Below, piece after piece: positions 3,721 through 41,322 of a stretch of DNA of 57,089 nt. Made by a program: the position numbers and the translations under genes. The notes under the pieces were generated by a model that did not search any database, was not told the DNA's origin, and saw nothing but the letters and a program-made list of their open reading frames with translations. The stretch is from Campylobacteraceae bacterium. GTDB taxonomy: Bacteria; Campylobacterota; Campylobacteria; Campylobacterales; Sulfurovaceae. The number at the start of each line of letters is the position of its first letter. Position 1 is the stretch's first letter. Location of the stretch: assembly GCA_026996165.1 (NCBI GenBank), contig JALWMP010000062.1, positions 1-57,089 on the forward strand, read 5' to 3'.

Positions 3721-3754
3721 ATAATAACTCAAAAATAAAAAATTGAGTTATTAT
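3721..3754 (+). promoter_or_regulatory. 12-bp perfect inverted repeat over the fic -10 box and start codon (candidate operator)
   Basis: ataataactcaa-N10-ttgagttattat. TATAAT at 3720-3725, ATG at 3753. Confidence 0.55.
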
Positions 3755-5084
3755 GGCAAAAAGTATTATTGAAAAAGCACCATTTAAATTTTCTGAACTT
3801 CCTAAAAATTTGACTCCTGAAAAGTTTGAATATATTTTGAAATATAAAGAGACCGATAGTCAAGGGCGTTACTTATATTGGGATAAATTTAAATATAGAG
3901 TAAAAAATGGTGATGATCTAGAGACAGCTTGGTGGGCTACTAAATGGAATCGTTTAGCTAAGATGAAGCCTATTGACTATGAGGGTAAAACTGATGAAGA
4001 TACATTTGCCTTTTGTGTTCCTGATATACTTCAAGCTCAACTTCATAAAATTGCGACTTTATCTTCTCAAGGTATTGTTCCTCATAACTCTATCAAAAAA
4101 AACTATCTAATTTCATCATTACTTATGGAAGAGGCTATAAGTAGTTCACAACTTGAAGGAGCTTCTACTACACGTCGTGTTGCTAAATCAATGCTAAGTT
4201 CAGGCAGAAAACCTACTAATGAAGATGAACAGATGATTTTAAATAACTATCTACTTATGCAAGAGATTAAGCGAAGTAAAGATGAAGAGTTAACACTAGA
4301 TTTAATTTTAGAGTATCATAAAATTGCCACACGAGGAAATAAGATAAATGGCAATGTAGCAGGAGTTTTTAGAGATAATGATGAGATTGTAATTACAGAT
4401 GGTTTTGAAGAGATAGTTCATGTTCCACCACCTTACAAAAATATAGAAGAGCGTTTACAAAAGGTTTGTGCTTTTGCAAACAAAGAGCATTTAGGAGAGA
4501 GTGGAGAGATGTTTATTCACCCTGTGGTGAAGGCTATTATTTTACATTTTATGATTGCTTATGAACATCCATTTTCTGATGGCAATGGACGAACAGCACG
4601 AGCTATATTTTATTGGTTTATGCTTCGTAGTGGATATGACTTTTTTGAGTATATCTCTATTAGTAAATTACTTAAAGAAGCTCCTACTAAATATGGAAAA
4701 TCATTTCTTTATACTGAGATAGATGATAATGACTTGACCTATTTTATCTTTTATCAGGTAGAGATTATTATTCGTGCTATTGATGAGCTATTGCGTTACT
4801 TACAAAAGAAGAGCCAAGAGTTTGAAGAGGTCTCTAAACTTTTAAATAGTTCACCTGTTGGTAGAGCTTTAAACTTTATACAAAAAGATATTGTCAAAAA
4901 AGCTATTAAAAATCCTGGTCGTATATTTACAAGTAATGAGATAGTAAGTGACTATGACATCTCTGAAAATACAGCACGAAAATATCTCAATGAGTTAGTT
5001 AAATATAAGATTTTAGCCTCCTATAAAGAGGGGAGAAGAGTTAACTATATTGCTCCTTCTACTATTCGTGAGACACTTTCATAA
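3753..5084 (+). CDS. Fic family protein (AMPylase-type) with C-terminal HTH
   Basis: Canonical HPFSDGNGRTAR motif, N-terminal inhibitory SSQLEG, C-terminal ISENTARKYLNELV helix-turn-helix. Confidence 0.92.
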   Translation: MAKSIIEKAPFKFSELPKNLTPEKFEYILKYKETDSQGRYLYWDKFKYRVKNGDDLETAWWATKWNRLAKMKPIDYEGKTDEDTFAFCVPDILQAQLHKIATLSSQGIVPHNSIKKNYLISSLLMEEAISSSQLEGASTTRRVAKSMLSSGRKPTNEDEQMILNNYLLMQEIKRSKDEELTLDLILEYHKIATRGNKINGNVAGVFRDNDEIVITDGFEEIVHVPPPYKNIEERLQKVCAFANKEHLGESGEMFIHPVVKAIILHFMIAYEHPFSDGNGRTARAIFYWFMLRSGYDFFEYISISKLLKEAPTKYGKSFLYTEIDDNDLTYFIFYQVEIIIRAIDELLRYLQKKSQEFEEVSKLLNSSPVGRALNFIQKDIVKKAIKNPGRIFTSNEIVSDYDISENTARKYLNELVKYKILASYKEGRRVNYIAPSTIRETLS

Positions 5085-5124
5085 ATAAGTTAGATTAAAA
5101 TTTTAGGTAAATTTTATTTTAATC

Positions 5125-5195
5125 AATCAGGCACTATTATTTTTTTTAAAAATAGTTTCCGATTAAATTTCTTTGAAGCTTAATTTATATATAAT
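5125..5195 (+). promoter_or_regulatory. putative promoter of the sap/glycan operon with upstream imperfect inverted repeat
   Basis: aatcaggcactatt (5125-5138) / aatagtttccgatt (5151-5164), 11 of 14 matching. TATAAT at 5190-5195, SD aagga at 5212. Confidence 0.4.
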
Positions 5196-5221
5196 TTTCT
5201 TTAAGAAGATAAAGGATCGTT

Positions 5222-6622
5222 TTGGCTAGAAGATATAGAATTTTTATAACAAATTTACCTTTTTTAGTTTTTTTAGGAAGTATAGACGGTATAACACTTT
5301 TTAAAGAGAAAGAGGATTATAAATATTTTTTAATTTTAATAAAAAATTTAAGTAAAAAATATCTACTAGATATACACTCTTATATACTTTTAGAGAATTC
5401 AATTTATTTTTTAGGAACACCCAAGACAAAAGATAGTTTAGTAAAATTTATGCAGAGTTTAGCAAGAAGTTATACAACATATTATAATAAAAAATATAAT
5501 AGAAAGGGTACACTTTGGGCAGGACGATATAAAGCAAGTTTAGTAGATGAACGAGCCTATCTTTTAGATGTAATGATATATATAGAGTCTTTATCAAACT
5601 ATAAGAATAAAAGAAATAACTATTATAGTAGTATCGGTAAAAATTTTTTTAATGAAGAGAATGATTTTCTTATAGAACATACTATATATAAAGAATTAGG
5701 AAAAAACAGTAAAGAGAGAAGTATTAACTACTCAGCCCTTTTTAACAGTAGATTAAATAGTATTCACTCATTTCAGTTTATAAGAGAAAATTTAGAGAAA
5801 CAGTTGATTATAGGAACTCTACCTTTTATAAAAAAGATAGAAAAAACTATAGGAAAAACATTAAGAGCCAAAAAAAGAGGCCGACCTAAAAAAAATCAAA
5901 AGAAAAGGAAAAAGATGTATAAAAAATTAGTAGTGTTAGATAAAAGTAAACATTTAGATTTAAAATTAAATAAGATGAAAAATTTAGATTTTGCGAAAGA
6001 GTTAAATTTTTGTCCCATAGTAGCTAAAGAGTTAGAGCAAATGGCACAACTATTTCCAGTAGTTTTCAGTGGAGATAACGAGAATCCTGTACTTGTATCA
6101 TTGTTATCATTAGGTACACAGAATCTTGCCATTAATAGTGAAGGGAAATGGATAGGTAGTTATATACCATTATTTATAAGAAGATACCCTTTTTCTCTTG
6201 CCTCATCAGGTGAAAATAGTGAACAGAAGATAGTTTTAATAGATGAAGATTCTAGCCTATTTTCAACAAGTACTGGAGAAAATCTCTTTACTAAAGATGG
6301 AGAACAGACAGAACAATTAAAAAATGCTATTAATTTTTTAACAGTTTATGATAATGATGTTACTATAACAAATAGTGTTGTTAAGACTATAAGTCAAAGT
6401 GGTATATTAGAAACAAGAGAGATTACCGTTGGAGAAGGAGATGAAAAAAAGGTATTAGTAGAGGGATTCAAAGTTGTAGACAGAGAAAAACTTAATCAGT
6501 TAAGTGATGAGATATTAGCTAATTGGACAAGAAAAGGAATTATCAATTTTATAGAGGTGCATTTAAAATCTTTAAATAATATAGAAAGATTATTTACGCT
6601 AATGACACAACAACAGAGATAA
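5222..6622 (+). CDS. sapC: fusion of a degenerate Y1/RAYT transposase domain (aa 1-~225) and SapC (from M232)
   Basis: N-half has MARR, KFMQSL..SYTTYYNKKYNRKGTLWAGRYKASLVD and KKRGRPKK, but the HUH position reads SIY. C-half has FPVVF, YIPLFIRRYPF and GFKVVDREKLNQLSDE SapC motifs. Lies directly upstream of the T1SS genes. Confidence 0.85.
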   Translation: MARRYRIFITNLPFLVFLGSIDGITLFKEKEDYKYFLILIKNLSKKYLLDIHSYILLENSIYFLGTPKTKDSLVKFMQSLARSYTTYYNKKYNRKGTLWAGRYKASLVDERAYLLDVMIYIESLSNYKNKRNNYYSSIGKNFFNEENDFLIEHTIYKELGKNSKERSINYSALFNSRLNSIHSFQFIRENLEKQLIIGTLPFIKKIEKTIGKTLRAKKRGRPKKNQKKRKKMYKKLVVLDKSKHLDLKLNKMKNLDFAKELNFCPIVAKELEQMAQLFPVVFSGDNENPVLVSLLSLGTQNLAINSEGKWIGSYIPLFIRRYPFSLASSGENSEQKIVLIDEDSSLFSTSTGENLFTKDGEQTEQLKNAINFLTVYDNDVTITNSVVKTISQSGILETREITVGEGDEKKVLVEGFKVVDREKLNQLSDEILANWTRKGIINFIEVHLKSLNNIERLFTLMTQQQR

Positions 6623-6631
6623 AGTAAAAAA

Positions 6632-8395
6632 ATGAATAAAGTAGATAAAAAGTTAGCAGAGAGTAGTTTAGAAAATGTTTTAAAAAGAACTAGGAAATGG
6701 TTCTTTTATGCAGGATTATTTAGTCTTTTTATAAATATACTTATGCTTGTTCCATCATTTTATATGCTTCAAGTATATGATAGAGTAATGCAGAGTAGAA
6801 GTTTGGAGACACTACTTTTTTTAACAATACTAGTTGCAGTACTGTTTGTAACAATGGGACTTTTACAAGTTATTCGCTCTAGAGTACTTGTAAGAGTATC
6901 AAATAAAATTGATATGGACTTAAATGGTAAAGTTTATGATACAATCTTTAAACTAGCAAGATTACAACCTGGAAAAGTATCAGCCTCTCCAATAAATGAT
7001 TTGACAAAACTAAGACAATATATGACAGGAAATGGAGTTTTTGCATTTTTTGATGCACCTTGGTTTCCAATATATTTGTTTGTAATGTATCTCTTTAGTC
7101 CTATATTTGCTGCTTTTACTGTATTTGCTGCTATTGTTATCTTTTCTATTACAATTATAAATGAAAAATCAACTAAAAAAGGTTTAGAAAAGGCAAACAG
7201 TTTAAATAATCAATCATCATTTTTTTTAAATAAAAATATTCAAAATGCAGAGATTATTCATGCACTTGGTATGCATGAAGCTATAAAAAAGAAATGGTAT
7301 GATAAACATTTAAAATTTTTACATATACAGTCACAAGCAAGTGATGTAGCAGGAAAATGGGCTAATCTTAGTAAGACTTCAAGACAGTTTTTTCAATCTC
7401 TTACATATGGAATTGGTGCTTATTTAGCAATAAAAGGACTTATATCTCCTGGTACAATTATTGCTGGTGCAGTCTTAATGGGAAGAGCCTTAGCTCCATT
7501 AGACCTTTTAACAGCTTCATGGAAAGGTTTTGCAGAAGCACGAAGTGCTTATGGAAGATTGAATAATATGTTAAAAGAGTTCCATGAAAAAGAGGATAAT
7601 ATGGATTTGCCACCACCAAAAGGAGAACTTTCTATTGAAAGAGTTGTTGTAGCTCCACCTTTGGCGAAGACAGCAGTTTTAAAAGGTATAAGTATGAAAA
7701 TACCTAAAGGGAGTGTAGTAGGACTAATTGGGACTAGTGGAAGTGGAAAATCTACTCTTGCTAGAGCAATGTTAGGCGTATGGCCATTAATGAGTGGTAC
7801 TGTGCGATTAGATGGTGCTGATATACATAAATGGGATACTCAAAAATTAGGACCATATTTAGGATATTTACCTCAAGATATTGAACTTTTTGAAGGGACA
7901 ATAGCAGAAAACATAGCTAGATTGGGTGAAGTAGATGCTGTAAAAGTTGTAGAAGCTGCTCAGATAGCAGGTGTTCATGATATGATACTCAAATTTCCAA
8001 ATGGTTATGATACTAAAATTGGTGCAGGAGGTATTGGATTAAGTGGTGGGCAAAGACAAAGGGTTGGTTTAGCAAGAGCAATCTATAAAAATCCTATTTT
8101 TGTGGTACTAGATGAACCAAATTCAAACTTAGATAGAGAAGGTGAAGTTGCACTTGCTAGTACTATTAAGTATCTAAAATCAATAGGAACAACAGTTGTT
8201 ATAATATCTCATAAGACAGAAATTTTGCTTAGTACAGATTTAATAGCAGTCTTAAAAGAAGGAATGTTATCTATGTATGGTAAAAGTAGTGAGGTATTAG
8301 TTAAACTTGGACTTGCAAAAGTACAACCACAAAAAGAGCAAAAATCTCAATCAAGTGTATCACTTGCTAAACCAAGTAGTGAAGGAAAGAGATGA
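6632..8395 (+). CDS. sapD: type I secretion ABC transporter, PrtD/SapD family
   Basis: YMLQVYDRV, FFDAPW, Walker A GTSGSGKST, LSGGQRQR, LDEPNSNLD. Confidence 0.93.
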   Translation: MNKVDKKLAESSLENVLKRTRKWFFYAGLFSLFINILMLVPSFYMLQVYDRVMQSRSLETLLFLTILVAVLFVTMGLLQVIRSRVLVRVSNKIDMDLNGKVYDTIFKLARLQPGKVSASPINDLTKLRQYMTGNGVFAFFDAPWFPIYLFVMYLFSPIFAAFTVFAAIVIFSITIINEKSTKKGLEKANSLNNQSSFFLNKNIQNAEIIHALGMHEAIKKKWYDKHLKFLHIQSQASDVAGKWANLSKTSRQFFQSLTYGIGAYLAIKGLISPGTIIAGAVLMGRALAPLDLLTASWKGFAEARSAYGRLNNMLKEFHEKEDNMDLPPPKGELSIERVVVAPPLAKTAVLKGISMKIPKGSVVGLIGTSGSGKSTLARAMLGVWPLMSGTVRLDGADIHKWDTQKLGPYLGYLPQDIELFEGTIAENIARLGEVDAVKVVEAAQIAGVHDMILKFPNGYDTKIGAGGIGLSGGQRQRVGLARAIYKNPIFVVLDEPNSNLDREGEVALASTIKYLKSIGTTVVIISHKTEILLSTDLIAVLKEGMLSMYGKSSEVLVKLGLAKVQPQKEQKSQSSVSLAKPSSEGKR

Positions 8396-9696
8396 ATAAA
8401 ATAGTAGAAAAAGAAGAAGTAACTCTTCCTCCTAGTGACCCAACAAAAATAGTACTATTTGGTATAGTTTTACTTATAGTTGTATTTGGTGTTATTGGAG
8501 GCTGGATGGCATATGCACCATTAGCTAGTAGTTCAGTTGCTAATGGAAAGGTTGTTATTGGTGGAGTGAAGCAAAAAGTACAAAGTTTAGATGGAGGTAG
8601 AGTAAAAGCTATTTATATTAATGATGGTGATATAGTAAAAAAAGATACTCTTTTGATAAAGTTAGATGATGTTCAAATTGAAGAAGCTTTAAAAAATTTA
8701 AAATCACAATATCAAAATACAATGGTGGAATATGCAAGATTGAAAGCAGAATTAGAAAATAAAAATAAAATAAATTTTCCAAATAATATTGATAAACACT
8801 TAATTGAAACTCAAAAAAGTATATTTAAAACAAGAAAAAAATCTCTAAATGATGAAAGATTAATAAGTAAAAAGAGAGTAATACAAGCTAAAAAGCAGAT
8901 AGGCTCTTTAAAAGCATTAATTAACTCAAACAAAAGAAGACTTAAAGATGTTATAGAGCAAAAAAGAGAACAGCAAATTCTATTTAAACAAAGATTAATC
9001 AATAAACTAAAAATTCAAGAACTAGAAAAAGAAGAAAATCTTTTAAAAGGAGATATTGCAAGTAAAAGAGCAGATATTTTAAGATTAAGAGAGAAAATAG
9101 GAGAGATAGAGACTCAAGAGCTTTTAAGTAAAAAGAAGTTTAGAGAAGATGTTTTAAATAAATTGGTTCAAACACAATCTGAAATTGAAAAATTAAAAGC
9201 ACAAATTGCTACTAGTGAAGATAAGTTAAAAAGAACAGAAATAAAAGCACCTATTGGTGGGGCAATAGTAGGACTTAAAGTTCATACAATAGGAGATGTA
9301 ATTAGACCAGGAGCTGATATTTTAGAGATAGTTCCAGCTGATTATAAGCCATTAATAGTGGCTTATGTCAACTTAAAAGATATTGATAAAGTAAAAATAG
9401 GAGAAAAGAGTATAGTAACATTTCCTGCTTTTAATATGAAAAATATGCAACCTATAGAGGGGAAAGTTATTTATATTTCAGCTGATAGTATGAAAAATAA
9501 AGATTTAAGAGGCTATTTTTATAAGGCGAAAATTGAATTAACAGAAAAAAGTAAAAAAGAGTTAAACGATAATAATCTTACACTTGTTTCGGGTATGCCA
9601 GTCGTAGCAATGATTAATACAGGAAATAGAACAATGTTAGATTACCTTATTAAACCATTTGTTGATATGTTTAGAAAGAGTTTTAATGAAGAGTAA
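8392..9696 (+). CDS. sapE: type I secretion membrane fusion protein, HlyD/PrtE/SapE family
   Basis: Single TM segment, long coiled coil, IKAPIGG, GMPV...RTMLDYLIKP. Confidence 0.92.
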   Translation: MNKIVEKEEVTLPPSDPTKIVLFGIVLLIVVFGVIGGWMAYAPLASSSVANGKVVIGGVKQKVQSLDGGRVKAIYINDGDIVKKDTLLIKLDDVQIEEALKNLKSQYQNTMVEYARLKAELENKNKINFPNNIDKHLIETQKSIFKTRKKSLNDERLISKKRVIQAKKQIGSLKALINSNKRRLKDVIEQKREQQILFKQRLINKLKIQELEKEENLLKGDIASKRADILRLREKIGEIETQELLSKKKFREDVLNKLVQTQSEIEKLKAQIATSEDKLKRTEIKAPIGGAIVGLKVHTIGDVIRPGADILEIVPADYKPLIVAYVNLKDIDKVKIGEKSIVTFPAFNMKNMQPIEGKVIYISADSMKNKDLRGYFYKAKIELTEKSKKELNDNNLTLVSGMPVVAMINTGNRTMLDYLIKPFVDMFRKSFNEE

Positions 9697-11005
9697 ATAT
9701 AGTTTAATTTTTATATTAAGTATAAGTTTACTATATAGTAAAGAGATACTTACTGTATCAGAAGCATATCAGTTAGGACTTTCTCATGCAAATGAGATAA
9801 AGTCTTCTTTCTATCAATATAAAGCAAATGAAGAGAGAATAAAACAACAAGAGTCAAATTTATATCCTCATCTTTCAGTCTCCTCAAATATCAATAGAGG
9901 TTATAATGAATTAAGACGAGAGAGTGCTTATCAAAATGCAGACCTTAGTGAGTCTACAGATAGTATATCAGTTAGCTTTACACAAGTTGTATATGATCCA
10001 TCTATAAATATAAGAACAGATATAGAGAAGAAACAAACGGAACTCTCTTTTTTAAATCACTCTATATTAAAACAAAACTTTGCTACAGAAGTTTTAGAAA
10101 GCTATTTAAAAATACTGAAATCAAGAAATAGAATAGCTGTCTTAGAGTCTTATGTTGATTATTATAGTTCTTTTAAAAAATTAATAGAAGAGAAATTAAA
10201 ACTTAACCTTGTAAGTAAAATGGATCTTTTAGATATAGAAGTAAATCTTGAACAATCAAAGTTACAAGTTACAAAAGAGAGAGAGCTATTAAAAGCTTAT
10301 AAGAAAAACCTATCTTACTTAATAGGTATAGATAGTAAAGAGATAACTCTTCCTCAGAATGAAATAAAGTATATTTCAGAGAATAAGATTCAAGAAATGT
10401 TATCTGTAGTTCAAAACTTTACTCAAATAAGTAATAGTCTTCAATATGTAAAAGCAGAAAAAGGTATTGAACTTATGGAAAAAAAAATAGAAGAGGCTAA
10501 AAGTTCACATCTTCCTAAAGTTAATTTTCAAGCAAACTATAAGAAAAATTTTTCAGATAGTCCTACTACATACTATGATAATACAAAAATATTATCTTTA
10601 CATATAAGTATGCCTATTTATCAGGGGGGTATGGTTAAAGCTCAAATAGAAGAGGCTAAATTGAACAGATTAGCAGCTTTAGAAGATTCAAAAAAGATAG
10701 AAAAAAAAATAGATATTGATTATAAGCAGGAGCTATCTAACTTTGAATATTTGGTTAAAGCAGTGGAGCTTTATCGGAAAGCTTATGAAAAATCTGAACT
10801 GTATCTAAAACTTGCTAATGAGGGTTATAAGAGTGGACTTAAAAGTATAGTAGATATTTATGATGCACAAGCCAAACTAAATGACAATAAATTTAAATAT
10901 ATGCAAAATGTATACGATATGTTTACATCTTATATTAATCTTTTAATTATTACAAATAATATGAAAGAGTTGGTATTGGTAGATAAAATTTTAACTAGAG
11001 GATAA
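9686..11005 (+). CDS. TolC-family outer membrane channel (SapF-like)
   Basis: Signal peptide from ATG 9686 (the ORF track start at 9659 is probably too long). HLPKV, MPIYQGG, GLKSIVDIYDAQ. Follows the ABC and MFP genes. Confidence 0.88.
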   Translation: MKSKYSLIFILSISLLYSKEILTVSEAYQLGLSHANEIKSSFYQYKANEERIKQQESNLYPHLSVSSNINRGYNELRRESAYQNADLSESTDSISVSFTQVVYDPSINIRTDIEKKQTELSFLNHSILKQNFATEVLESYLKILKSRNRIAVLESYVDYYSSFKKLIEEKLKLNLVSKMDLLDIEVNLEQSKLQVTKERELLKAYKKNLSYLIGIDSKEITLPQNEIKYISENKIQEMLSVVQNFTQISNSLQYVKAEKGIELMEKKIEEAKSSHLPKVNFQANYKKNFSDSPTTYYDNTKILSLHISMPIYQGGMVKAQIEEAKLNRLAALEDSKKIEKKIDIDYKQELSNFEYLVKAVELYRKAYEKSELYLKLANEGYKSGLKSIVDIYDAQAKLNDNKFKYMQNVYDMFTSYINLLIITNNMKELVLVDKILTRG

Positions 11006-27058: not shown

Positions 27059-30000
27059 ATGGCATTAACAAAAACAGAGGTTTCAAAACTATATGTCGCG
27101 ATTTTTAATCGTGCATCAGAAGGTAATGGAAACACATATTGGCAAGATCAAGGGGATTTAGCAGAAGTAGCTACAAAAATGTTGGCTACACCAGATGCGG
27201 CAAGTTACTTTGGAGATAGTTTAAATGATGATAAAGCATTTATAGAGTGGATTTATAAAAATACATTAAATAAAACTTATGCAGATGATGCCTCAGGTAT
27301 CGACTACTGGGTTTCAGAGTTAGCAAGTGGTAAGACAAGAGGTCAAGTTGTAGCAGATTTAGTGACAGCAGCAACAGACCCTGCAAATGCAGGACCAGCA
27401 CAAGATCAATTTCATAATAGAGTAACAGTTTCTGACTACGTAGCAGATCATGTACCAGAAGTTCCTGAAGATTATAAGACTGCTTTAGGTTTTGATGGAG
27501 ACTTAGTTGTTACTAATCTTGGTCAAACTGTTATAGATTCAATAAAATATGTTGATCAAACATTGGCTGCAGGGGAAACTTTTAAACTTACTACAGATGT
27601 AGATGTTCCTGAATTAACAGATAAAAGTGATACTATTATAGCTGAATCTAGTTCAGTTCTTGGTCCTGATGATAAAATTATTGATACAAGTGTTAAAGAC
27701 CATGATGTTATGAATTTAACAGTTCAAGCTGACACACCAGCATTTACTGCACTTAATATTGAAGAGATTAATGTAACTTTAGAAACAATGGGTGGAAATA
27801 CTATTGATGCTTCAAATATTACTGGAAGTACTATATCTGTAGCTGCTGATCCAGCTCAAATTGGTTTTACAGGTGCTGCAACAATAGCTAATTTAGGTGA
27901 TAACAATGCTGTAGCAGGTGATGGTATTACAGATTTCACAGTAAATGGTGTAAAAGGTGGTCTTATAGATACAGGTTCGGCAACCTCTCTTACTACAGCT
28001 TCAGCTGCCGCAACAGATAGCCTTAATCTTAAAATTAATGGAGATGTATCTTTAACTGCAACTGCACATAAAGATTTAAATGTAGAGACAACTGCTGATG
28101 CAACTCTTACACTTGGTGGTACAATCTTCTCAGGTGATGGTGTAATTACAGGTAAAGGAGATTTAACTGTTAAAACTGCAACATCTACTTTTGATACTGC
28201 TAATGATGCAAAAACATTAGATAATCAAGGTACAGGAAAATTGGCAATTGAGTTAACTGATAGTGCTGTAGGTGTTGACCTTACAGGTGTAGATGCTAAT
28301 GATGTAATTACAGATGTTGCATTTACTCAAAATATTGAGTTTACAAATACGCTTGATGTTACAGCTAAAGCTACAGCAAACACTATGACTTTAACAGATG
28401 CAACACCAGCAGGTACAGGTGGTAGTGCAGGAACTCAGGCAAATATTCACTTAACAAAAGCAGGAACTTTAGCAACTGATTCATATACTTTTGTTGATGT
28501 AGATGAAGCATCTATTGAAGCTCAACAAGGTGGTGGAATTGCACAAATTGATACTGGTAGTGCAAACCTTACATTAAATACAGCAAAAGACTTAACTCTT
28601 ACAAACTTAATTGCTTCAGGACAAGGTGTTGTTGTGGATGCAGCATCAGCTGGTAAACTTACTATTACAAATATGGAAGCATCAGCTCTAAATGCAAAAG
28701 GATTTACAAAAGATCTTACTGTAACAGAAGCTGAAATTGCTGATACTCATACCTCAGGAGCAAATACAGATGCAACAGCTAGTCAAATAACTGTATTAGG
28801 TGGAACAGCTAAAAACTCTATTACTCTTGCTACTCAAACAGCAGCTGCAACAGTTGTAACACAAGACGATAAAGATACTATTACAGCTGTAAATACAACT
28901 GGAAAACTTACTATTGATTCTGCAGGTGGTGATGATACAGTAAGTGCTATTGCTATGACAACATCTGTAGCACAAATTGATTTAGGTGCAGGAAAAGATA
29001 CACTTACAGTTCAAAATGCTGATGCTACTGGTGATGCTACTGTAAATGCTGGTGCAGATGATGATACAGTTCTTGTTCTTGATACAACTGCTGGTAAAAT
29101 GGTCGTTAATGGTGATGCTGGTAATGATATTGTTGATTTACAAGCTAAAATAACAGGTGGTGCTAATGTTGGTGGTGGAAAACTAGCTGCTACAGCAGAT
29201 GTTACTGTAAATGGTGCTGATGGTAATGATACTGTTAAAATCAATGCAGCTACTGCTGATACAGCTACAATTACTATTGATGGTGGTGATGGTACAGATA
29301 TTGTTGAAGTAACAAAAGATGCAGACTTTACAAATACAACTCTAACTCTTTCAACAATTGAAAACTTAAAAATTGATACTGCTGCTACTTTTACAGATGA
29401 TCAATTAAATGATCAAACATTTGCCGTTACTTCAGGTACAGCTGCTGTTGATATTCTTACTGTTAATCTTAATGCTTCTACTGCAACAGATAGTGAAAAT
29501 ACAACAAACTTAAGTACATTAGACTTCTCTGCTTCTAGTTCAACAGAAGTTGAATATGTAAATATTAATGCTACTGCAAGTTTAAGTGATGATATTATCA
29601 AAGGTGCTCATAATTCTACAAATGTAATTGATCTTGGTGCTGCTTCTGGTAAAGAGACAGTTCAACTATTTGCAGATGCTATTGGTACAACTATTGATAA
29701 CTTACAAACAGGTGCTACACAACCTGATGTAACATCATCTATGTTAACAGGAATAGATACAACAAAAACTACTTTTGATGTAGCAGTAATTAATCATTTT
29801 GAAACAGCAGATGATTCATTAATCCTTGGTGATGCTGCAACTTCAACAAACTATAAAGCAATTTCTGTTGATGCATTTAATGGTTCAGCAGCACCTGATG
29901 CAGGGGTTGAAGAGTACTTAGCCAATGCTATAGAGGGTGCAAATACAGAACTTGGTAATGATAGCAACTTAGAGTATGTTTATGTTTACAATTCAGATGC

Positions 30001-30151
30001 AACTACTGCAAATCCAAATACAAAAGATGCTTGGTTATTGTGGGATAGTGATGGTAACCATAGTATAGATGCTGCAATACTTCTAGTTGGTGTTGAACCA
30101 GATCCATCAGATGGTTCAGGTTTTGCTGCTTCTGATATTGTTGCAGGATAA
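27059..30151 (+). CDS. S-layer protein (SapA/RsaA-like, DUF4214-type N-terminus, T1SS substrate)
   Basis: No signal peptide. LYVAIFNRA...YW anchor domain, Ala/Thr/Asp-rich and Cys-free, RTX-like turns (LGAGKDTL, GDAGNDIV, GADGNDTV, GGDGTDIV), strong SD aaggag, same island as sapCDEF. Confidence 0.88.
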   Translation: MALTKTEVSKLYVAIFNRASEGNGNTYWQDQGDLAEVATKMLATPDAASYFGDSLNDDKAFIEWIYKNTLNKTYADDASGIDYWVSELASGKTRGQVVADLVTAATDPANAGPAQDQFHNRVTVSDYVADHVPEVPEDYKTALGFDGDLVVTNLGQTVIDSIKYVDQTLAAGETFKLTTDVDVPELTDKSDTIIAESSSVLGPDDKIIDTSVKDHDVMNLTVQADTPAFTALNIEEINVTLETMGGNTIDASNITGSTISVAADPAQIGFTGAATIANLGDNNAVAGDGITDFTVNGVKGGLIDTGSATSLTTASAAATDSLNLKINGDVSLTATAHKDLNVETTADATLTLGGTIFSGDGVITGKGDLTVKTATSTFDTANDAKTLDNQGTGKLAIELTDSAVGVDLTGVDANDVITDVAFTQNIEFTNTLDVTAKATANTMTLTDATPAGTGGSAGTQANIHLTKAGTLATDSYTFVDVDEASIEAQQGGGIAQIDTGSANLTLNTAKDLTLTNLIASGQGVVVDAASAGKLTITNMEASALNAKGFTKDLTVTEAEIADTHTSGANTDATASQITVLGGTAKNSITLATQTAAATVVTQDDKDTITAVNTTGKLTIDSAGGDDTVSAIAMTTSVAQIDLGAGKDTLTVQNADATGDATVNAGADDDTVLVLDTTAGKMVVNGDAGNDIVDLQAKITGGANVGGGKLAATADVTVNGADGNDTVKINAATADTATITIDGGDGTDIVEVTKDADFTNTTLTLSTIENLKIDTAATFTDDQLNDQTFAVTSGTAAVDILTVNLNASTATDSENTTNLSTLDFSASSSTEVEYVNINATASLSDDIIKGAHNSTNVIDLGAASGKETVQLFADAIGTTIDNLQTGATQPDVTSSMLTGIDTTKTTFDVAVINHFETADDSLILGDAATSTNYKAISVDAFNGSAAPDAGVEEYLANAIEGANTELGNDSNLEYVYVYNSDATTANPNTKDAWLLWDSDGNHSIDAAILLVGVEPDPSDGSGFAASDIVAG

Positions 30152-30308: not shown

Positions 30309-32291
30309 ATGGTGGAGAGTAAACTTGAAACTGCAATATATCTAAAAGAGTTAGCAAACTTTAAACAGGCTATATTGTTATTAAAAAAATATATAAAAAA
30401 AAATCCAACCAATATAGAAGTTTATGGACATTTAATACATGCTTTAACATTGAATAATCAAATTAAAGAGGCATGGCATTATCTTAATAAAGCAGAAAAA
30501 CTTCAAAAAAACAATAGCATAATCTTGTCATATAAGGCTAGACTATTATTAAAAGAGAGAAAACTAGAAGAGGCTTTTAATACTATACAGTTTGCATATA
30601 ATCAAGATAAAAATTCAGGGTTTATACTTTTAACATTTGCAAATATACTTAGTTCGATGGGTGCAACAGATAAAGCAAAAGAGGCTCTTAATTTAGCTAT
30701 TAGAGTTGATCCAAAGTTAGCTGAGGCTTATGCTCTTCGTGCTATATATTTTAATAAAGAAGGAGATAGAGCAAAAGCTTTATTATATGCAAAAAAAGCT
30801 CTTTTACTTAAACCTCACTTAAAAGTTATAGAATCAATAACAGAAGCAAATAATCTTTTAGAAGCAATATCTCTTATTAAAGAGGTATTAAAATCTATTC
30901 CAGCTAAAAAAAATATATTGCTTCTTAATAAACTAGCAGACTATCAATATCAGGTAAATGATAAAGAGAGTGCAATGGATACATTGACTCAAATAATAAA
31001 TCGTGTTCCAAATTCAGTTGATGTACGAATAAAAATAGCCAATATATTAACAGAAAAAGGAGAGTATAATAGTGCCATAAAACACTATAATATAGCAAAA
31101 AAATATGCTCCAAATAATTCTCGAATATTTAATAACTTAGGATTATGTTATAAGCAAAAAGGGGATGCTGAACCTTCTGAAAAAAATTTTAAAAAAGCTT
31201 TGAGTTTAAATCCAAATGATTATCATATATACTCAAATTTAGCTCTTTTGTTTATAGATGAAAACAGATATGAAGATGCTATAAAGGTTATAAATAGTGC
31301 CTTAAAAATAAATCCCGAAGAGATGGATTTATATATGACATTAGGACTCTGTTATATTGGGTTATATAGATATTCACAAGCCATGGAAGTTGCTAAAAAA
31401 GCACTTAATATAAATCCAAATGCAAGTAAAATACATCATCTTGTAGGTGAAATATATATGAAACAGGGAGAGTTAAAAAAAGCTTTAGATAGTTTACACA
31501 CCTCTTTGGAGTGCTATTTACAAGATTTAGAAAATGCAAAAATTATTAAACCACCAGTTATTTCTAGATATATGAATACTGAGAATGCGAAAATAGTTTT
31601 AAAAAAAGTTTACAAAGTATTTAAAGAAAAAAATATAAAAATCTTTCTATCTTCTGGAACATTGCTGGGAATAGTTAGAGATGGTGATTTACTACCTTAT
31701 GACAAAGATATGGATATTGGTGTAGATTGGGATGTTTCAAGAGAGTTAGTAGAAGAGACACTAAAAGAGATTGGTTTTAAAATACAATATTCATCAGCTA
31801 AAGATAGAGAGTGGTTAGTAACAGGTGCAGATAGAGAGTTAGGAGTTACTGTAGATTTTTTCTTTTATAAAAAATTACAAAATAAAACGGTTTATGGTTT
31901 CCATGGAGAACCATACCCTATTTTGTGGGAGTTTCCTCATTTTGAACTATCTACCATTGAGTATAATGGAGATAAATGGCTTATCCCTTCACCTTATGAG
32001 GTCTATTGTGAGACTATGTATGGTGAAAATTGGAGAACTCCTATTTCAAATTATGATACTATGTTATCTTCTTCAAATCTTGTAAAAGAGTCAGAAACTT
32101 TAGCTATTTGTTATGGTATTGCTAGATTAATAGATAATATAAAAAGAAGTAATTATAAAAAAGCAAAAGGTTACTGCGAACAACTATTAGCTATACACAA
32201 TGCACCAATTATCCATAAACTAATGAAGAAAATGGAGACTATTTTAGATGACTATGAAAAAACTATTAGTTTAAAAAGAGATGGTGACTAA
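30309..32291 (+). CDS. TPR-repeat protein with C-terminal LicD/fukutin-family phosphotransferase domain
   Basis: Many TPRs in aa 1-~400. GTLLGIVRDGDLLPYDKDMDIG, VDFFF and YGENW motifs. Confidence 0.85.
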   Translation: MVESKLETAIYLKELANFKQAILLLKKYIKKNPTNIEVYGHLIHALTLNNQIKEAWHYLNKAEKLQKNNSIILSYKARLLLKERKLEEAFNTIQFAYNQDKNSGFILLTFANILSSMGATDKAKEALNLAIRVDPKLAEAYALRAIYFNKEGDRAKALLYAKKALLLKPHLKVIESITEANNLLEAISLIKEVLKSIPAKKNILLLNKLADYQYQVNDKESAMDTLTQIINRVPNSVDVRIKIANILTEKGEYNSAIKHYNIAKKYAPNNSRIFNNLGLCYKQKGDAEPSEKNFKKALSLNPNDYHIYSNLALLFIDENRYEDAIKVINSALKINPEEMDLYMTLGLCYIGLYRYSQAMEVAKKALNINPNASKIHHLVGEIYMKQGELKKALDSLHTSLECYLQDLENAKIIKPPVISRYMNTENAKIVLKKVYKVFKEKNIKIFLSSGTLLGIVRDGDLLPYDKDMDIGVDWDVSRELVEETLKEIGFKIQYSSAKDREWLVTGADRELGVTVDFFFYKKLQNKTVYGFHGEPYPILWEFPHFELSTIEYNGDKWLIPSPYEVYCETMYGENWRTPISNYDTMLSSSNLVKESETLAICYGIARLIDNIKRSNYKKAKGYCEQLLAIHNAPIIHKLMKKMETILDDYEKTISLKRDGD

Positions 32292-33350
32292 ACTATTATT
32301 TGCTCGACTCTCTTTTTTTAAGCTTATTTGAAGTTTAATTAACTCTTCTTTGTCAATAGTATAACTACTAAACTCTGTAGAGATATTTAACTCTTTTAAA
32401 ATATCTTTTAACTTATTTGATGAGAGTTCCCCAAAAATTTCTGTTAAAGCATTATCTATAAAATCATATTTACCAATAATATTATCTATCAATAAAGGCA
32501 GAGTAAAACTACAAGCTATGCCATGAGGTATGCCTTTGTATGTGGTTATATAGTAACTCATGGCATGAGCTAAAGCTGTTTGAGTATTTGAAAAGGCCAA
32601 TCCTGCATACATAGAAGCTTTTAAAACTTTATCTCTATAGTTAAGATTTTCTAAATTATTTGAGAGTGCTACAAGATTTTCTACAATCAATTTAGCTGAT
32701 TTTATAGCATAATTTATCGTTATTTCATTCGCATTTTTATTCCAAATAGACTCTAAAGCATGAGATAGAGTATCTAATCCTGTTTGAATGGTTATATCTT
32801 TTGGAACTGATAGAGTTAAAGTAGAGTCATAAATAGCAATTTCACTAAACAAATTAGTCAGATGAAGTGAGTATTTTTTCTTTTCACTCATATCCCAAAT
32901 AGTAGCCCAAGGTGTTATTTCACTTCCTGTTCCTGCTGTTGTAGGAACAGATATAATAGGTATGAGTCTATAATCTTTTTTTGGTAGTTTACCTTTTATA
33001 ATATCTTCTACAAACTGATACTCTTTTTTTTGATTGTAAACTGAAAAGAATTTTGAAGCATCTATAACACTTCCACCACCAATAGCCAATATAAGTTCAA
33101 ACTCTATCTTGTGTACTTTACTATAAATAGCCTCTAAGTCTTTAAACTCAGGGTGTGATTTTACCTCTGATATAACATTAACAATACTATTTGTTAAAGC
33201 TTTTATCTTATCTACTAAACCCCTTTTTACAAATCCAGCAGAGGTTATCAATAGAGTTTTTCTGCCATCTATATACTTATCAATATTTTCTAACTCATTA
33301 TTGCCATAAACTATTTTAGTAGGCATCTGATATGTAAATCTTTTATTCAT
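32271..33350 (-). CDS. iron-containing alcohol dehydrogenase, probable phosphonoacetaldehyde reductase
   Basis: IGGGSVID, VPTTAGTGSE, DTLSHALES, HAMSY, PHG. Translationally coupled to ppd. Confidence 0.85.
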   Translation of the reverse strand: MNKRFTYQMPTKIVYGNNELENIDKYIDGRKTLLITSAGFVKRGLVDKIKALTNSIVNVISEVKSHPEFKDLEAIYSKVHKIEFELILAIGGGSVIDASKFFSVYNQKKEYQFVEDIIKGKLPKKDYRLIPIISVPTTAGTGSEITPWATIWDMSEKKKYSLHLTNLFSEIAIYDSTLTLSVPKDITIQTGLDTLSHALESIWNKNANEITINYAIKSAKLIVENLVALSNNLENLNYRDKVLKASMYAGLAFSNTQTALAHAMSYYITTYKGIPHGIACSFTLPLLIDNIIGKYDFIDNALTEIFGELSSNKLKDILKELNISTEFSSYTIDKEELIKLQISLKKESRANNSLVTISF

Positions 33351-34390
33351 TTTAGTCTATTTACCTTTACTTTTTCTACTGGTGGTCTTGGAGTCTCATT
33401 ATCTACTCCACACTTAATATGCAGAAAATTTAGCCCTTTTTTAGGACTATTTAAAAACTCTTCAAAATCTTTTAATATATCTAAACCTGCACCTTTTGCA
33501 ATAGAGTTATAATCAATATGATTTTGATAGCTATTTTGTCCACCTGTTGATTTATTCTGCTCATTATCAAATAATATATAAGTTAAATTTATGTTTTTGT
33601 ATCTACCTGCTGTAGTCAATCCTCCCATGTGCATAACAAACTCAGCATCTCCACCACAAACAATCACTTTTTTACCTGCTAAACTTGCACCAAGCCCAAG
33701 ACTCAAAGCACCTCCCATATTTCCTACCATATAGAAGTTATTTGTATTTGGCATAAAACTATATATCTCTCTTGCTGTATGTCCTGTTGTTCCTATAAAA
33801 AGTGTATCTGTATCTTTAAAATTTTTGTTTAATCTCTCTAAAAACTCACTTCTAGGTAGATAACTTGTCATATCTAATTTATGTTCATTATCTAACTCTA
33901 CTTTTGAAAAAGTATCTTTTTGTAAAATTGCTATAGTTTCTGAGTTATTGCATAAATTTATTTGGGATATTGTATTTTCTATATTTTTGTTATCTAAAAT
34001 AGTATAGTCATAACCATAAGCATTTATAAGAGCAGGCAGCTTTGTTGCTAAATGTTGATGCTGTATTTCACTATCACCATCTTTATATGTTCTCCAACTA
34101 GTGATGATAGGAAAGGTAACTCCATAAGGTTTTAAAAGACTTGTGATACAACTTCCCATGTTTGTCAGTCCAGAAGATTGCACTATAACTATAGGTTTTT
34201 TACCAGCCATTTTTAAACCAGCTGCTATCGAACAAGCTACTGCTTCACTTGCACTTGGAATATACTCTAGTTTATCACTATTTATAACTGAATTTATAAG
34301 ATTTTTAGCAAAACTACATGGAACTACACATATATGGGTATATCCTTCTTTAATCAATTTTTCTACAAAAATATTAGTATCTAATGCCAT
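33347..34390 (-). CDS. ppd: phosphonopyruvate decarboxylase
   Basis: VPCS, SEAVA, QSSGLTN, EIQH, GTTGHTARE, FYMVGNMG, ThDP motif GDAEFVM...DN, STGGQ. Confidence 0.88.
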   Translation of the reverse strand: MALDTNIFVEKLIKEGYTHICVVPCSFAKNLINSVINSDKLEYIPSASEAVACSIAAGLKMAGKKPIVIVQSSGLTNMGSCITSLLKPYGVTFPIITSWRTYKDGDSEIQHQHLATKLPALINAYGYDYTILDNKNIENTISQINLCNNSETIAILQKDTFSKVELDNEHKLDMTSYLPRSEFLERLNKNFKDTDTLFIGTTGHTAREIYSFMPNTNNFYMVGNMGGALSLGLGASLAGKKVIVCGGDAEFVMHMGGLTTAGRYKNINLTYILFDNEQNKSTGGQNSYQNHIDYNSIAKGAGLDILKDFEEFLNSPKKGLNFLHIKCGVDNETPRPPVEKVKVNRLK

Positions 34391-40130: not shown

Positions 40131-40200
40131 ATTTAGCTATTTAGGGTCAGGTGGTGAAAATAAACTTTTAAGAAAAAAGTACTATAATACTTAATCTAAA

Positions 40201-40415
40201 AACCTGAGTTAGATGAAATATTATATTCATATATTCACAAAAGCCTAAAAATAGGTAAGATTTTCCATATGATTAGATAGATTTTTTTGGTGAAACTCTA
40301 CAACGAAGTGAAGACAATTAGCTAGTTAGTTTTGTAAAATTTGCCATTGCCTATGCAGTGCTTTGCATTCTCTTTGAGAAAAACCTCATATATCATATTT
40401 CGTCGAACTTAGGTT
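40201..40415. mobile_element. MITE-like structured repeat, copy 2 (diverged, internally deleted)
   Basis: aacctgagttagatgaaata...tatttcgtcgaacttaggtt ends. Internal blocks shared with copies 1 and 3. taaaa at 40197-40201 and 40415-40419. Confidence 0.85.
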
Positions 40416-40433
40416 AAAAATAAGGAGTCATCA

Positions 40434-41204
40434 ATGGCAAGAAGACCAAGACTTGATATAGCAGGTTTTCACCATATCATAAATAGGGGAGTAGCAAGAG
40501 ATAATGTATATAAATGCGATGCAGATAAAGAGAAATATTTAGAGATACTTTGCAAAGCATGTAGAATATACAAGGTCAATGTTCATGATTATTGCTTGAT
40601 GGATAATCACTATCATTTATTAGTAGAGACAACAAGTGACAATCTATCTTTATTTATGAGACAAGTAAATTCAAACTATGCTATTTATTTTAATAAAAAA
40701 TATAAACGAACAGGTCATTTATGGCAGGGAAGATATAAATCATGGTATATCGTTGAAAAGCAATATCTATATGAGCTATTTCGATATATTGAACACAATC
40801 CAATAGAAGCAAAAATAAGTAGTAGAGTAGGTGAGTATCCATTTACATTGTTAGCAACAGTTTTAAATAGTGACCAAGAGTTAATACCTTGTGCTGAACA
40901 TTCACAAATAAAAAAAGAGATAGAATATGAGGGGATAAGAGAGCATTTAGAGATGACATTAACTAAACAAGAATTAAAAGAGTTAACAATTATGCAAAAG
41001 AAGAAGATAGTAGAAAAAGAGTATAAATATGGATATAATAGAGAAAAAAGACTTGAAGAACACTTTGAAAATTTTAAAAGTAAAGAGGAGAGAAATAGAG
41101 CAATAATGAAAGCATTAGATGATGGTTATACTCAAGCAGAGGTGGCTAGATATTTGAAGCTTACAGCTTCAGCTATCGCTAAGATTAGGAAGAAGTTCGA
41201 CTAG
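40434..41204 (+). CDS. REP-associated tyrosine transposase (Y1 HUH) with C-terminal HTH
   Basis: MARRPR, HIINRG, intact HUH in LMDNHYHLL, GHLWQGRYKS, catalytic YIEHNP, C-terminal YTQAEVARYL HTH. Confidence 0.92.
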   Translation: MARRPRLDIAGFHHIINRGVARDNVYKCDADKEKYLEILCKACRIYKVNVHDYCLMDNHYHLLVETTSDNLSLFMRQVNSNYAIYFNKKYKRTGHLWQGRYKSWYIVEKQYLYELFRYIEHNPIEAKISSRVGEYPFTLLATVLNSDQELIPCAEHSQIKKEIEYEGIREHLEMTLTKQELKELTIMQKKKIVEKEYKYGYNREKRLEEHFENFKSKEERNRAIMKALDDGYTQAEVARYLKLTASAIAKIRKKFD

Positions 41205-41322
41205 AAGTTTATTTTCATTACCTGACCCTAAAAAGTTTACCCACAACTAAACAGAGTTAAGATATAATTCCACGATTATTCATTAGAGATAAATAGAAAA
41301 AACTAAAGGCAATGGTATATAA

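What the first reader, a model, noticed from the sequence alone, without database searches (positions are those of the whole stretch)
5222..6622. Catalytically degenerate RAYT transposase fused in frame to SapC at the head of the S-layer secretion operon
Seen: the N-terminal ~225 aa align by eye with the intact RAYT at 40434 (HSYILLENSIYFL vs HDYCLMDNHYHLL; GTLWAGRYKAS vs GHLWQGRYKSW; IYIESLS vs RYIEHNP). Both metal-binding His of the HUH motif and the NP after the Tyr are lost, yet the frame stays open with its own SD and TTG, and the basic YYNKKYNRKG and KKRGRPKK segments are kept. Established: HUH histidines are required for Y1 cleavage, and SapC precedes sapDEF in Campylobacter fetus with unclear function. 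Inference: a domesticated transposase acting as a nucleic-acid-binding module, possibly linking S-layer export to gene control.
Basis: partly seen in the sequence, partly recalled or inferred. Interest (0 to 1): 0.8.

Follow-up and report, generated by a model that had tools for sequence, protein, structure and literature searches.

The report
Dead transposase turned S-layer export regulator
The first gene of this surface-layer export operon is a conserved fusion of a transposase that has lost its cutting residues with the poorly understood protein SapC, and it keeps a copy of the transposon's end sequence just in front of its promoter, so it likely acts as a DNA-binding regulator of its own operon; the SapC of Campylobacter fetus carries a more decayed form of the same domain.

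Summary
Confirmed and extended. ORF 5222-6622 is a Y1 (HUH) transposase domain fused to SapC. The fusion recurs across Sulfurovaceae, Sulfurimonas, Sulfuricurvum and Arcobacteraceae, always directly before sapD (26 of 26). None of 45 aligned proteins has both HUH histidines, yet the rest of the fold is kept (dN/dS median 0.18). The parent is a TIR-flanked Y1 subfamily (TIRYT), not a REP-associated RAYT and not the element at 40434.

New here: (1) An inverted pair of the parent's terminal-repeat motif sits at a fixed distance before the promoter; the window copy (5125-5164) is the genome's best such site. (2) An internal ribosome site plus ATG (25 of 25 genes, three codon phases) and a weak TTG start predict two isoforms. 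(3) Named Campylobacter fetus SapC proteins carry a more decayed version of the domain; long Campylobacteraceae SapC loci keep one repeat arm (6 of 6), short SapC genes lack it (0 of 16). (4) Dead or decaying relatives recur with arms at histidine-decarboxylase and glutamate-synthase loci.

Best reading: a domesticated transposase that regulates transcription through its former terminal repeat. DNA binding, direction of control and expression are untested.

The parts
5125..5138 (.). Left arm of the TIR-derived inverted repeat (predicted operator half-site)
   Evidence: PWM 15.7 bits; top pair in the genome also with a PWM trained without this site
5151..5164 (.). Right arm of the TIR-derived inverted repeat, 12 nt from the left arm; weaker here than in most relatives
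   Evidence: (I12)
5190..5195 (+). Predicted -10 box (TATAAT) of the operon promoter, 25 nt after the right arm
   Evidence: sequence; position compared with relatives; no transcription start mapped
5212..5216 (+). Shine-Dalgarno motif of the long isoform, followed by TTG at 5222
   Evidence: TTG start in 23 of 25 fused genes against 39 of 402 genome starts
5222..5914 (+). Catalytically dead TIRYT-type Y1 (HUH) transposase domain with subclass C-terminal extension, aa 1-231
   Evidence: Pfam PF01797; AF2 model mean pLDDT 89.9; best fold match 4ER8 TnpA-REP; dN/dS
5399..5407 (+). Degenerate HUH motif (Ser60-Ile61-Tyr62)
   Evidence: His at 60 in 1 of 45 and at 62 in 1 of 45 aligned fusions, never both
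5435..5539 (+). Conserved basic helix and loop, aa 72-106 (8 K/R, no acidic residue), predicted DNA-binding surface
   Evidence: many invariant positions in 45 of 45; equivalent region carries DNA contacts in TnpA-REP
5579..5596 (+). Tyr120 with the metal-ligand Asn and the Pro of YxxxNP lost
   Evidence: Asn in 0 of 45; Tyr kept in 31 of 45
5870..5893 (+). Basic tail KKRGRPKK; GRP invariant (AT-hook-like, label recalled)
   Evidence: G220, R221, P222 in 45 of 45; linker 220-229 has low pLDDT
5905..5917 (+). Internal Shine-Dalgarno motif (5905-5909) and ATG (5915-5917): predicted start of a SapC-only isoform
   Evidence: SD in 25 of 25 genes in three codon phases; Met in 44 of 45
5915..6622 (+). 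SapC domain, 235 aa
   Evidence: Pfam PF07277; model pLDDT 94; no clear PDB fold match
6632..11005 (+). sapD-sapE-sapF type I secretion genes, the predicted regulated operon
   Evidence: TIGR01842, HlyD, OEP; sapD follows the fusion in 26 of 26 loci
27059..30151 (+). Candidate S-layer protein gene (DUF4214), likely cargo
   Evidence: Pfam DUF4214; 29-56% identity to the large genes beside Campylobacteraceae sapCDEF
40137..41235 (+). Comparator only: intact TIR-flanked Y1 element (gene 40434-41204), a distant relative
   Evidence: 34-nt TIRs; separate clade

Best explanation
The gene encodes a transposase-derived Y1 domain that lacks its metal-binding residues, fused to SapC, and this domain likely binds the terminal-repeat motif kept just upstream of the operon promoter and would thereby regulate, most likely activate, transcription of the S-layer export genes. 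Shown: the fusion, the selective loss of catalytic residues, purifying selection on the rest, the conserved site and its fixed spacing, the co-occurrence of site and domain, and the conserved internal start signal. Inferred history: a TIR-flanked Y1 element landed before sapC, its stop codon was lost in frame, catalysis was lost afterwards (two fusions still have it), and its end sequence became an operator. Inferred operation: a weak TTG start gives a little long protein (regulator), and the internal SD-ATG gives more plain SapC. The SapC half would act as the input domain that ties regulator activity to the state of the export pathway or its cargo; this last step is the least supported.
For: (1) Selective decay: H60 1/45, H62 1/45, N124 0/45, while D32, H52, Y54, Y84, N89, R94, G96, R102 and G220 are 45/45. 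(2) dN/dS of the Y1 half: median 0.18, maximum 0.22, in the 8 of 300 pairs with dS<1 in both halves (SapC half 0.11); window versus nearest relative 0.18. (3) Site: at least one arm of 15 bits or more in 28 of 28 distinct upstream regions, both arms (7 bits or more) in 23 of 28, gap 11-14 nt. With the window and its nearest relative left out of training, the window site still ranks first in 1.86 Mb (15.8 versus 11.7). (4) The same PWM finds true TIRs at both ends of intact HUH-positive elements L185 and L186; GGGGWSAS is the published TIRYT TIR motif. (5) Spacing from right arm to -10-like box is 29-32 nt in 23 of 28 and 41 nt (one helical turn more) in 3 of 28. (6) Co-occurrence: 6 of 6 long Campylobacteraceae SapC genes with the relic domain have one arm 25-26 nt before a -10-like box; 0 of 4 short Campylobacteraceae and 0 of 12 other unfused sapC upstream regions have one. 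(7) Parallels: dead Y1 fused to a HisRS-like domain, divergent from histidine-decarboxylase clusters, with one arm in 3 of 3 intact loci; an arm 69-76 nt before gltB in 32 of 32 Oxalobacteraceae loci beside a Y1 gene, 17 of 33 of which lack HUH and YxxxNP. (8) In TnpA-REP the DNA contacts lie on the helices after HUH, the part kept here.
Against: No binding, expression or transcription start was measured. Characterised Y1 enzymes bind single-stranded hairpins, not duplex operators. Mismatches between the two arms are G-T compatible on the top strand 42 times and A-C 8 times, which favours a hairpin, though relatives are not independent. The -10 search used loose patterns in a 22-48 nt window, and the promoter scan did not report this promoter. 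In the window itself the right arm is weak and 25 nt from the -10 box, off the usual spacing. No second site was found near the S-layer gene or elsewhere in the genome, so the regulon would be one operon. An equivalent system exists without the Y1 domain or the site (L180). The Campylobacter relic has lost the W-x-G-R motif and the GRP tail yet keeps an arm. Four of 9 parsed standalone relatives had no arm within 250 nt. Sixteen of 33 genes parsed keep catalytic motifs, so the gltB arrangement does not need a dead enzyme.
Confidence: 0.68

Rival explanations
1. The domain binds the repeat as a single-stranded DNA (or RNA) hairpin, as Y1 enzymes do, and acts on DNA structure, recombination or read-through transcripts at this locus rather than as a classical duplex-binding transcription factor.
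For: The arms fold into stems (z -4 to -5.6 in 3 of 5 folded sites); top-strand G-T excess 42 versus 8 and a recurrent mismatch at position 4; TnpA-REP binds an imperfect hairpin.
Against: Only one arm is kept in 6 of 6 Campylobacteraceae loci and in 5 of 28 fused loci; Oxalobacteraceae arms are direct repeats 48 nt apart. Fixed spacing to the -10 box fits duplex binding. The site lies upstream of the predicted transcription start. The window site folds weakly (z -2.0).
Confidence: 0.13
2. The Y1 half is kept as a protein-interaction or scaffolding module for SapC or the export machine, and the repeat survives only as part of the promoter.
For: Fold-core residues are among the best conserved; the Campylobacter relic keeps the fold core but loses part of the predicted DNA surface.
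Against: Basic surface residues and GRP are invariant in 45 of 45; the site tracks the domain across families; the same domain-plus-site pairing recurs with unrelated partners.
Confidence: 0.1
3. The insertion donated a promoter and a translated leader. Only short SapC matters, and the Y1 half is a slowly decaying relic.
For: The internal SD-ATG is fully conserved; unfused sapC genes exist in similar systems; the domain is much decayed in Campylobacteraceae.
Against: No stop or frameshift in any complete fused locus; dN/dS well below 1; conserved SD (23 of 24) and TTG at the long start; invariant non-catalytic residues at 39% minimum pairwise core identity.
Confidence: 0.06
4. The fusion is still an active nuclease or recombinase that uses a rebuilt metal site and nicks the repeat.
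For: Tyr120 is kept in 31 of 45; a Glu often sits at position 62 (31 of 45); two fusions keep the full motif.
Against: All three metal ligands are lost in the window protein; Tyr is replaced by Phe or His in 14 of 45 and position 62 is Tyr in the window clade.
Confidence: 0.03

Closest known systems
TnpA-Y1 subclass 2.1 / RAYT group 1 / TIRYT (PMC6006769, PMC3733652, PMC5581495)
   Same: Fold, length (about 230 aa), W and SS motifs, no REPs, and a GGGGWSAS-type TIR motif; nearest relatives are intact TIR-flanked genes.
   Different: HUH and YxxxNP lost; fused to SapC; the repeat stands as a head-to-head pair before the promoter instead of flanking the gene. PMC6006769 discarded long fusions and HUH-less proteins from its analysis.
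E. coli TnpA-REP (RAYT in the strict sense; PDB 4ER8, PMC3479197)
   Same: Best structural match; the helices that contact DNA there are conserved here.
   Different: No GTAG-REP hairpins seen near the gene; no catalytic residues; 11% identity.
SapC of Campylobacter fetus (PF07277; sapCDEF locus)
   Same: Same domain and same operon position. Named C. fetus records are 380 aa and their N-terminus matches the dead-Y1 profile (E 5.5e-4 in 2168 sequences; family-level hhalign 97.6%).
   Different: The Campylobacter relic is shorter (about 145-160 aa) and more decayed. The original record AAC97163 (344 aa) starts inside it. No paper found describes a transposase origin or a regulatory role.
TldR and dCas12f regulators: nuclease-dead TnpB/Cas12f turned transcription factors (10.1101/2023.11.30.569447, PMC13472631; search listing only)
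   Same: A transposon nuclease of the IS200/IS605 world loses catalysis repeatedly and is predicted to be reused for gene control.
   Different: A different protein (HUH transposase, not RuvC); no guide RNA; the target is the element's own former end sequence; input domains are fused.
Eukaryotic transposase-derived DNA-binding proteins such as FHY3/FAR1 and CENP-B (recalled, no call)
   Same: DNA-binding part kept, catalysis lost, binding site related to transposon ends.
   Different: Those derive from DDE transposases in eukaryotes; this is a bacterial HUH enzyme.

Membership tests
TnpA-Y1 class 2 (RAYT/TIRYT) active enzymes | Y1_Tnp core fold | tested here: met
   PF01797 above cut-off; Foldseek best hit 4ER8, E 4.3e-5
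TnpA-Y1 class 2 (RAYT/TIRYT) active enzymes | HUH motif | tested here: not met
   S-I-Y in the window; 0 of 45 with both His
TnpA-Y1 class 2 (RAYT/TIRYT) active enzymes | YxxxNP motif | tested here: not met
   Asn in 0 of 45
TnpA-Y1 class 2 (RAYT/TIRYT) active enzymes | ssDNA cleavage and strand transfer | not testable with these tools
   needs a biochemical assay
REP-associated RAYT (REPtron) | GTAG/GTGG-footed REP hairpins flanking the gene | tested here: not met
   inverted-repeat scan of 4900-5400 shows only AT-rich pairs and the TIR-like pair; NF047646 score 20.5 against cut-off 80
TIRYT / TIRtron (subclass 2.1) | Descent from subclass 2.1 proteins (W and SS motifs, about 230 aa) | tested here: met
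   nearest relatives by profile search and tree; motifs as in Table 1 of PMC6006769; 2.1.1 versus 2.1.2 not checked against the paper's supplements
TIRYT / TIRtron (subclass 2.1) | TIRs on both sides of the gene | tested here: not met
   both arms lie upstream; no strong arm after the gene in the window
SapC family (PF07277) | Profile match over the whole domain | tested here: met
   aa 239-457, profile 1-220, E 5.5e-63
SapC family (PF07277) | Position before sapDEF type I secretion genes | tested here: met
   26 of 26 fused loci
Transposase-derived transcription factors (TldR-like in principle) | Conserved loss of catalytic residues with purifying selection | tested here: met
Transposase-derived transcription factors (TldR-like in principle) | Conserved target site at a promoter | tested here: met
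   the promoter is predicted, not mapped
Transposase-derived transcription factors (TldR-like in principle) | Demonstrated DNA binding and change of transcription | not testable with these tools
   needs EMSA, ChIP or reporter assays
TldR family proper | TnpB/RuvC-derived protein with guide RNA | tested here: not met
   only Y1_Tnp and SapC domains found

The most novel reading that the evidence does not exclude
One TIRYT subfamily of HUH transposases is a widespread, unrecognised family of bacterial transcription factors that use their former terminal repeat as operator and have been fused to input domains more than once: SapC for S-layer export (including the sap locus of Campylobacter fetus), a HisRS-like domain as a histidine sensor for histidine-decarboxylase clusters, and a free form at gltBD in Oxalobacteraceae. 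This would supply a host function for RAYT-like genes and a function for the N-terminal third of C. fetus SapC.
Probability: 0.5. Interest if true: 0.92.

Novelty: new variant of a known kind. Interest (0 to 1): 0.84.

Why it matters
It makes two long-open questions testable with a named protein and a named 14-bp site. RAYT-like genes were predicted to serve an unknown host function (PMC5581495), and surveys set aside exactly the fused and HUH-less members (PMC6006769). SapC heads the S-layer export operon of Campylobacter fetus and C. rectus; in the passages seen it is treated as a transport component or mislabelled as a peptide permease. If the reading holds, a single-strand nuclease fold has been turned into a promoter-binding regulator with swappable sensor domains, an HUH counterpart to the TnpB-derived TldR factors. 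A cultured, harmless carrier exists (Sulfurimonas denitrificans DSM 1251, P0009).

Tried and rejected
Rejected. (a) One-genome accident or read-through artefact. (b) Descent from the 40434 element: AU p 1.1e-5. (c) REP association: none seen. (d) Dispersed repeat or large regulon: the arm pattern is not enriched over its reversed control in 5 genomes, and only one pair occurs in G000. (e) The internal SD as a by-product of lysine-rich codons: 25 observed versus 12.2 expected at 4 nt or more, 23 versus 5.5 at 5 nt or more.

Led nowhere. The SapC model has no clear fold match in PDB (best Z 2.6; no Foldseek hit under E 0.001); this does not show a new fold. SapC with SapD co-folding gave no verdict. 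No RNA holder was listed for the region. The Atlas returned only two Y1+SapC clusters of 105 and 60 members. No earlier scan findings were returned. No full Y1-SapC fusion was found in the 401 genomes searched from the phylum of G680. The sigma-70 scan did not report the predicted promoter. The 150-aa gene often upstream of the fusion has no Pfam hit. Whether the Campylobacter relic and the long fusion share one origin is unresolved: the best tree separates them, but one clade is not rejected (p-AU 0.40). One clade for all 17 long fusions tested has only 95/50 support. Ten literature searches listed no paper describing the fusion, the relic in C. fetus SapC or a TIR-operator role. The primary C. 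fetus sap papers were not held, so they were not checked.

Full report
OBSERVATION. The ORF at 5222-6622 is open for 466 codons. It carries Y1_Tnp at aa 31-123 and SapC at aa 239-457. It aligns with the 40434 protein over aa 1-122 only (34%, E 1e-19). The AF2 model has two confident domains joined by a low-confidence basic linker at 220-229 (mean pLDDT 89.9, pTM 0.52), and the best PDB match is TnpA-REP 4ER8. sapD, sapE, sapF and gmd follow. A DUF4214 gene at 27059-30151 resembles the large genes beside Campylobacteraceae sapCDEF (29-56% identity) and is the likely cargo.

CONSERVATION. Of 55 database hits to aa 1-232, 46 are Y1-SapC fusions of 403-480 aa, with named examples in Sulfurimonas denitrificans DSM 1251, S. 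hydrogeniphila and Halarcobacter. In 200 other genomes of the family, 12 hold an unbroken full-length match and one is split by contig ends. A phylum sample of 400 gave 6. The named loci L031-L046 add Sulfuricurvum and Poseidonibacter (L039 is cut by its contig end, and L037 and L038 duplicate L006 and L009). sapD follows in 26 of 26 distinct loci with downstream sequence. No full fusion was found in 401 genomes of the phylum of G680.

SELECTIVE LOSS OF CATALYSIS. Alignment A1 holds the window protein and 44 of the 46 fusions (P0046 and P0048, short at the N-terminus, were left out). His60 occurs in 1 of 45, His62 in 1 of 45, never both; the third metal ligand Asn124 in 0 of 45; Tyr120 in 31 of 45. 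These are the ligands named in PMC6006769 and PMC3479197 (passages). In contrast D32, H52, Y54, T66, M77, Q78, Y84, Y87, N89, Y92, R94, G96, T97, R102 and G220-R221-P222 are kept in 45 of 45 and match the commonest residue in 65 intact relatives. Nei-Gojobori dN/dS for the Y1 half has median 0.18 (maximum 0.22) in the 8 of 300 pairs with dS<1 in both halves; more distant pairs reach 0.48, where dS is likely underestimated. Distances of the two halves correlate (r 0.75). Against a universal loss: 2 of 13 full-length fused cluster representatives (P0061, P0067) keep HUH and YxxxNP, so fusion likely came before loss of catalysis.

ORIGIN. The nearest relatives are standalone proteins of about 230 aa of TnpA-Y1 subclass 2.1. 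Of the best 150 representatives, 71 keep both motifs, 60 lack both and 19 lack one; the profile was built from dead proteins, so these shares are biased. The long fusions form one group (FastTree 0.955; SH-aLRT 96 without P0067; 95/50 with it). Grouping them with the 40434 protein is rejected (p-AU 1.1e-5). The 40434 gene has 34-nt TIRs and fits the TIRYT description (PMC3733652 passages; PMC6006769 parts 2-5).

TWO STARTS. Among 25 distinct genes (27 parsed; L014, L039 and L045 not in this set) the long form starts at TTG in 23, against 39 of 402 confident starts in this genome. The Met that opens SapC is kept in 44 of 45 proteins. It is preceded by an SD match of 4 nt or more in 25 of 25 genes and of 5 nt or more in 23 of 25, with the AGG in all three codon phases (10, 4, 11). 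Expected under synonymous resampling: 12.2 and 5.5. Other in-frame ATGs: 16 and 5 of 165; genome-wide 36 of 2419 for 5 nt or more. Selection therefore acts on the nucleotides, which predicts a SapC-only isoform beside a scarcer long one. Expression was not measured.

THE SITE. Upstream of the fusions lies a head-to-head pair of a 14-nt motif. In 28 distinct regions, 28 have an arm of 15 bits or more and 23 have both arms at 7 bits or more, 11-14 nt apart. The window copy is at 5125-5138 and 5151-5164. It is the only pair above 18 bits in the genome and remains first when it and its nearest relative are left out of training (15.8 versus 11.7). Single arms of 15 bits or more occur 18 times in the genome, so one arm alone is modest evidence. 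The motif is the TIR of the parent family: the same matrix finds it at both ends of intact elements L185 and L186 (5 of 9 parsed genes had an arm, 3 of 12 were not parsed). The right arm ends 29-32 nt before a -10-like box in 23 of 28 regions, 41 nt in 3, 25 nt in the window, and no box was found in one. A site just upstream of the core promoter with a one-turn variant is what a DNA-bound activator would leave (established knowledge, recalled). The contrary signal is a G-T over A-C excess between arms (42 versus 8) and good folding in 3 of 5 sites.

CAMPYLOBACTER. In family f3, SapC comes long (364-395 aa) or short (about 220-230 aa). The extra N-terminus matches the dead-Y1 profile (hhalign 97.6%, E 2.9e-12), and an HMM made from it retrieves intact Y1 proteins (P0071, E 3e-9; the 40434 frame, E 4e-7). 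Named C. fetus records are 380 aa. P0270 scores E 5.5e-4 against the dead-Y1 HMM among 2168 sequences and 72% by hhalign alone. The original 344-aa record starts inside the relic. All 6 long loci examined head sapCDEF, keep the internal SD-ATG and have one arm 10 nt before a TTAA box and 25-26 nt before a -10-like box. The 4 short Campylobacteraceae genes examined are outside such operons and score at most 4.6; 12 other unfused sapC upstream regions score at most 7.6. One of those genomes has a single 15.7-bit arm downstream of sapC. L180 shows sapDEF-sapC beside an S-layer-like gene with neither domain nor site, so export does not need the Y1 half. PMC3887049 (section 10) reports that the sapC-sapA intergenic region is fully conserved between C. 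fetus subspecies.

PARALLELS. Five representatives are dead Y1 fused to a HisRS-like domain, with named members in Photobacterium, Vibrio, Tatumella and Paludibacterium. In 3 of 3 intact loci the gene is divergent from a histidine-histamine antiporter, histidine decarboxylase and hisS cluster and has one arm upstream (12-16 bits). In Oxalobacteraceae a standalone relative precedes gltB. An arm ends 69-76 nt before the gltB start in 32 of 32 loci, with a second arm exactly 48 nt earlier in 30 of 32; 17 of 33 parsed genes lack both catalytic motifs and 16 keep them (one of the 16 is not at gltB). These kin are not independent, but three unrelated target contexts share domain and motif.

MECHANISM. 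Most likely the long isoform binds the arm or arms with the basic helix-loop at aa 72-106, the region that contacts DNA in TnpA-REP, helped by the GRP tail on the AT-rich spacer (AT-hook label recalled). It would set transcription of sapCDEF and the glycosylation genes behind it; activation is favoured over repression by position only. By analogy with the HisRS-like fusion, the SapC half would be the input, reporting on export or cargo. What SapC binds is unknown: its model has no clear fold match. Confidence 0.68 for promoter regulation; rivals are listed separately.

LITERATURE. Seen: PMC6006769 (parts 2-5 of 10 and passages), PMC3733652, PMC3479197, PMC5581495, PMC4943207, PMC3034196, 10.1101/2024.07.26.605372 and 10.64898/2026.03.19.712371 (passages), PMC3887049 (passages and section 10), TldR and dCas12f papers (search listing only). 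No supplements were read; those of PMC6006769 and PMC3733652 may bear on the exact subclass and on whether these TIRs were listed. The primary C. fetus sap papers were not held. Ten searches listed nothing on this fusion, although the domain pair is present in databases.

VERDICT. A real, conserved, domesticated transposase fusion with a candidate operator derived from its own terminal repeat. New variant of a known kind (nuclease-dead transposon protein reused for gene control), new for HUH enzymes as far as these searches reach. Interest 0.84.

Noticed in passing
L064:5768-11881; L177:1545-9189; L178:2672-8786: Dead Y1 fused to a degenerate HisRS-like domain (613-634 aa, annotated as ATP phosphoribosyltransferase regulatory subunit), divergent from histidine-histamine antiporter, histidine decarboxylase and hisS, with a TIR-like arm in the intergenic region. 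Predicted histidine-sensing regulator of histamine production.
   Followed up: partly
L048-L085, about 9900-10900: Oxalobacteraceae keep a Y1 gene before gltBD with TIR arms at fixed positions before both its own start and gltB; about half have lost HUH. Predicted regulator of glutamate synthase.
   Followed up: partly
P0269-P0282 (named Campylobacter fetus SapC); L163-L168: C. fetus and related long SapC proteins have a relic Y1 N-terminus; the 344-aa original annotation starts inside it. In L168 the arm and -10-like box lie about 230 nt before the start codon, implying a long leader.
   Followed up: yes
window 40137-41235: Intact single-copy TIRtron: Y1 gene with C-terminal HTH between 34-nt terminal inverted repeats, between a DUF4214 gene and purA; no further copies of the TIR found in the genome.
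   Followed up: partly
L031:9437-9889; L032:9416-9886; L015:2192-2677; L002:3048-3476: A conserved protein of about 150 aa without a Pfam match lies directly before the fusion in many Sulfurimonas loci and directly after unfused sapC in L015; possible SapC partner.
   Followed up: no
P0058-P0206: 42 of the short standalone representatives lack both HUH and YxxxNP but keep the YFNxxY-R-G-TLW-GRY region: a large pool of dead Y1 proteins with unknown contexts. G1206:C1:549293 lies in a 737-aa frame and L106:337-2244 is an intact Y1 fused to a Mur-ligase-like C-terminus.
   Followed up: no
L169-L172: Short SapC genes in one Campylobacteraceae genus (59 of 73 genomes have SapC) lie outside any secretion operon, which suggests a SapC function independent of sapDEF.
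   Followed up: no
window 3753-5084: Fic/DOC family protein with C-terminal HTH directly upstream of the repeat; a similar gene precedes the fusion in L007 and L044.
   Followed up: no
window 30309-35679: TPR protein with a LicD-like stretch next to PEP mutase, TPP-dependent decarboxylase and iron alcohol dehydrogenase genes: a phosphonate pathway beside the S-layer glycosylation cluster.
   Followed up: no
window 36010-40089: Second DUF4214 protein (1359 aa) with Ig-like and TSP3 repeats, a further likely surface cargo.
   Followed up: no
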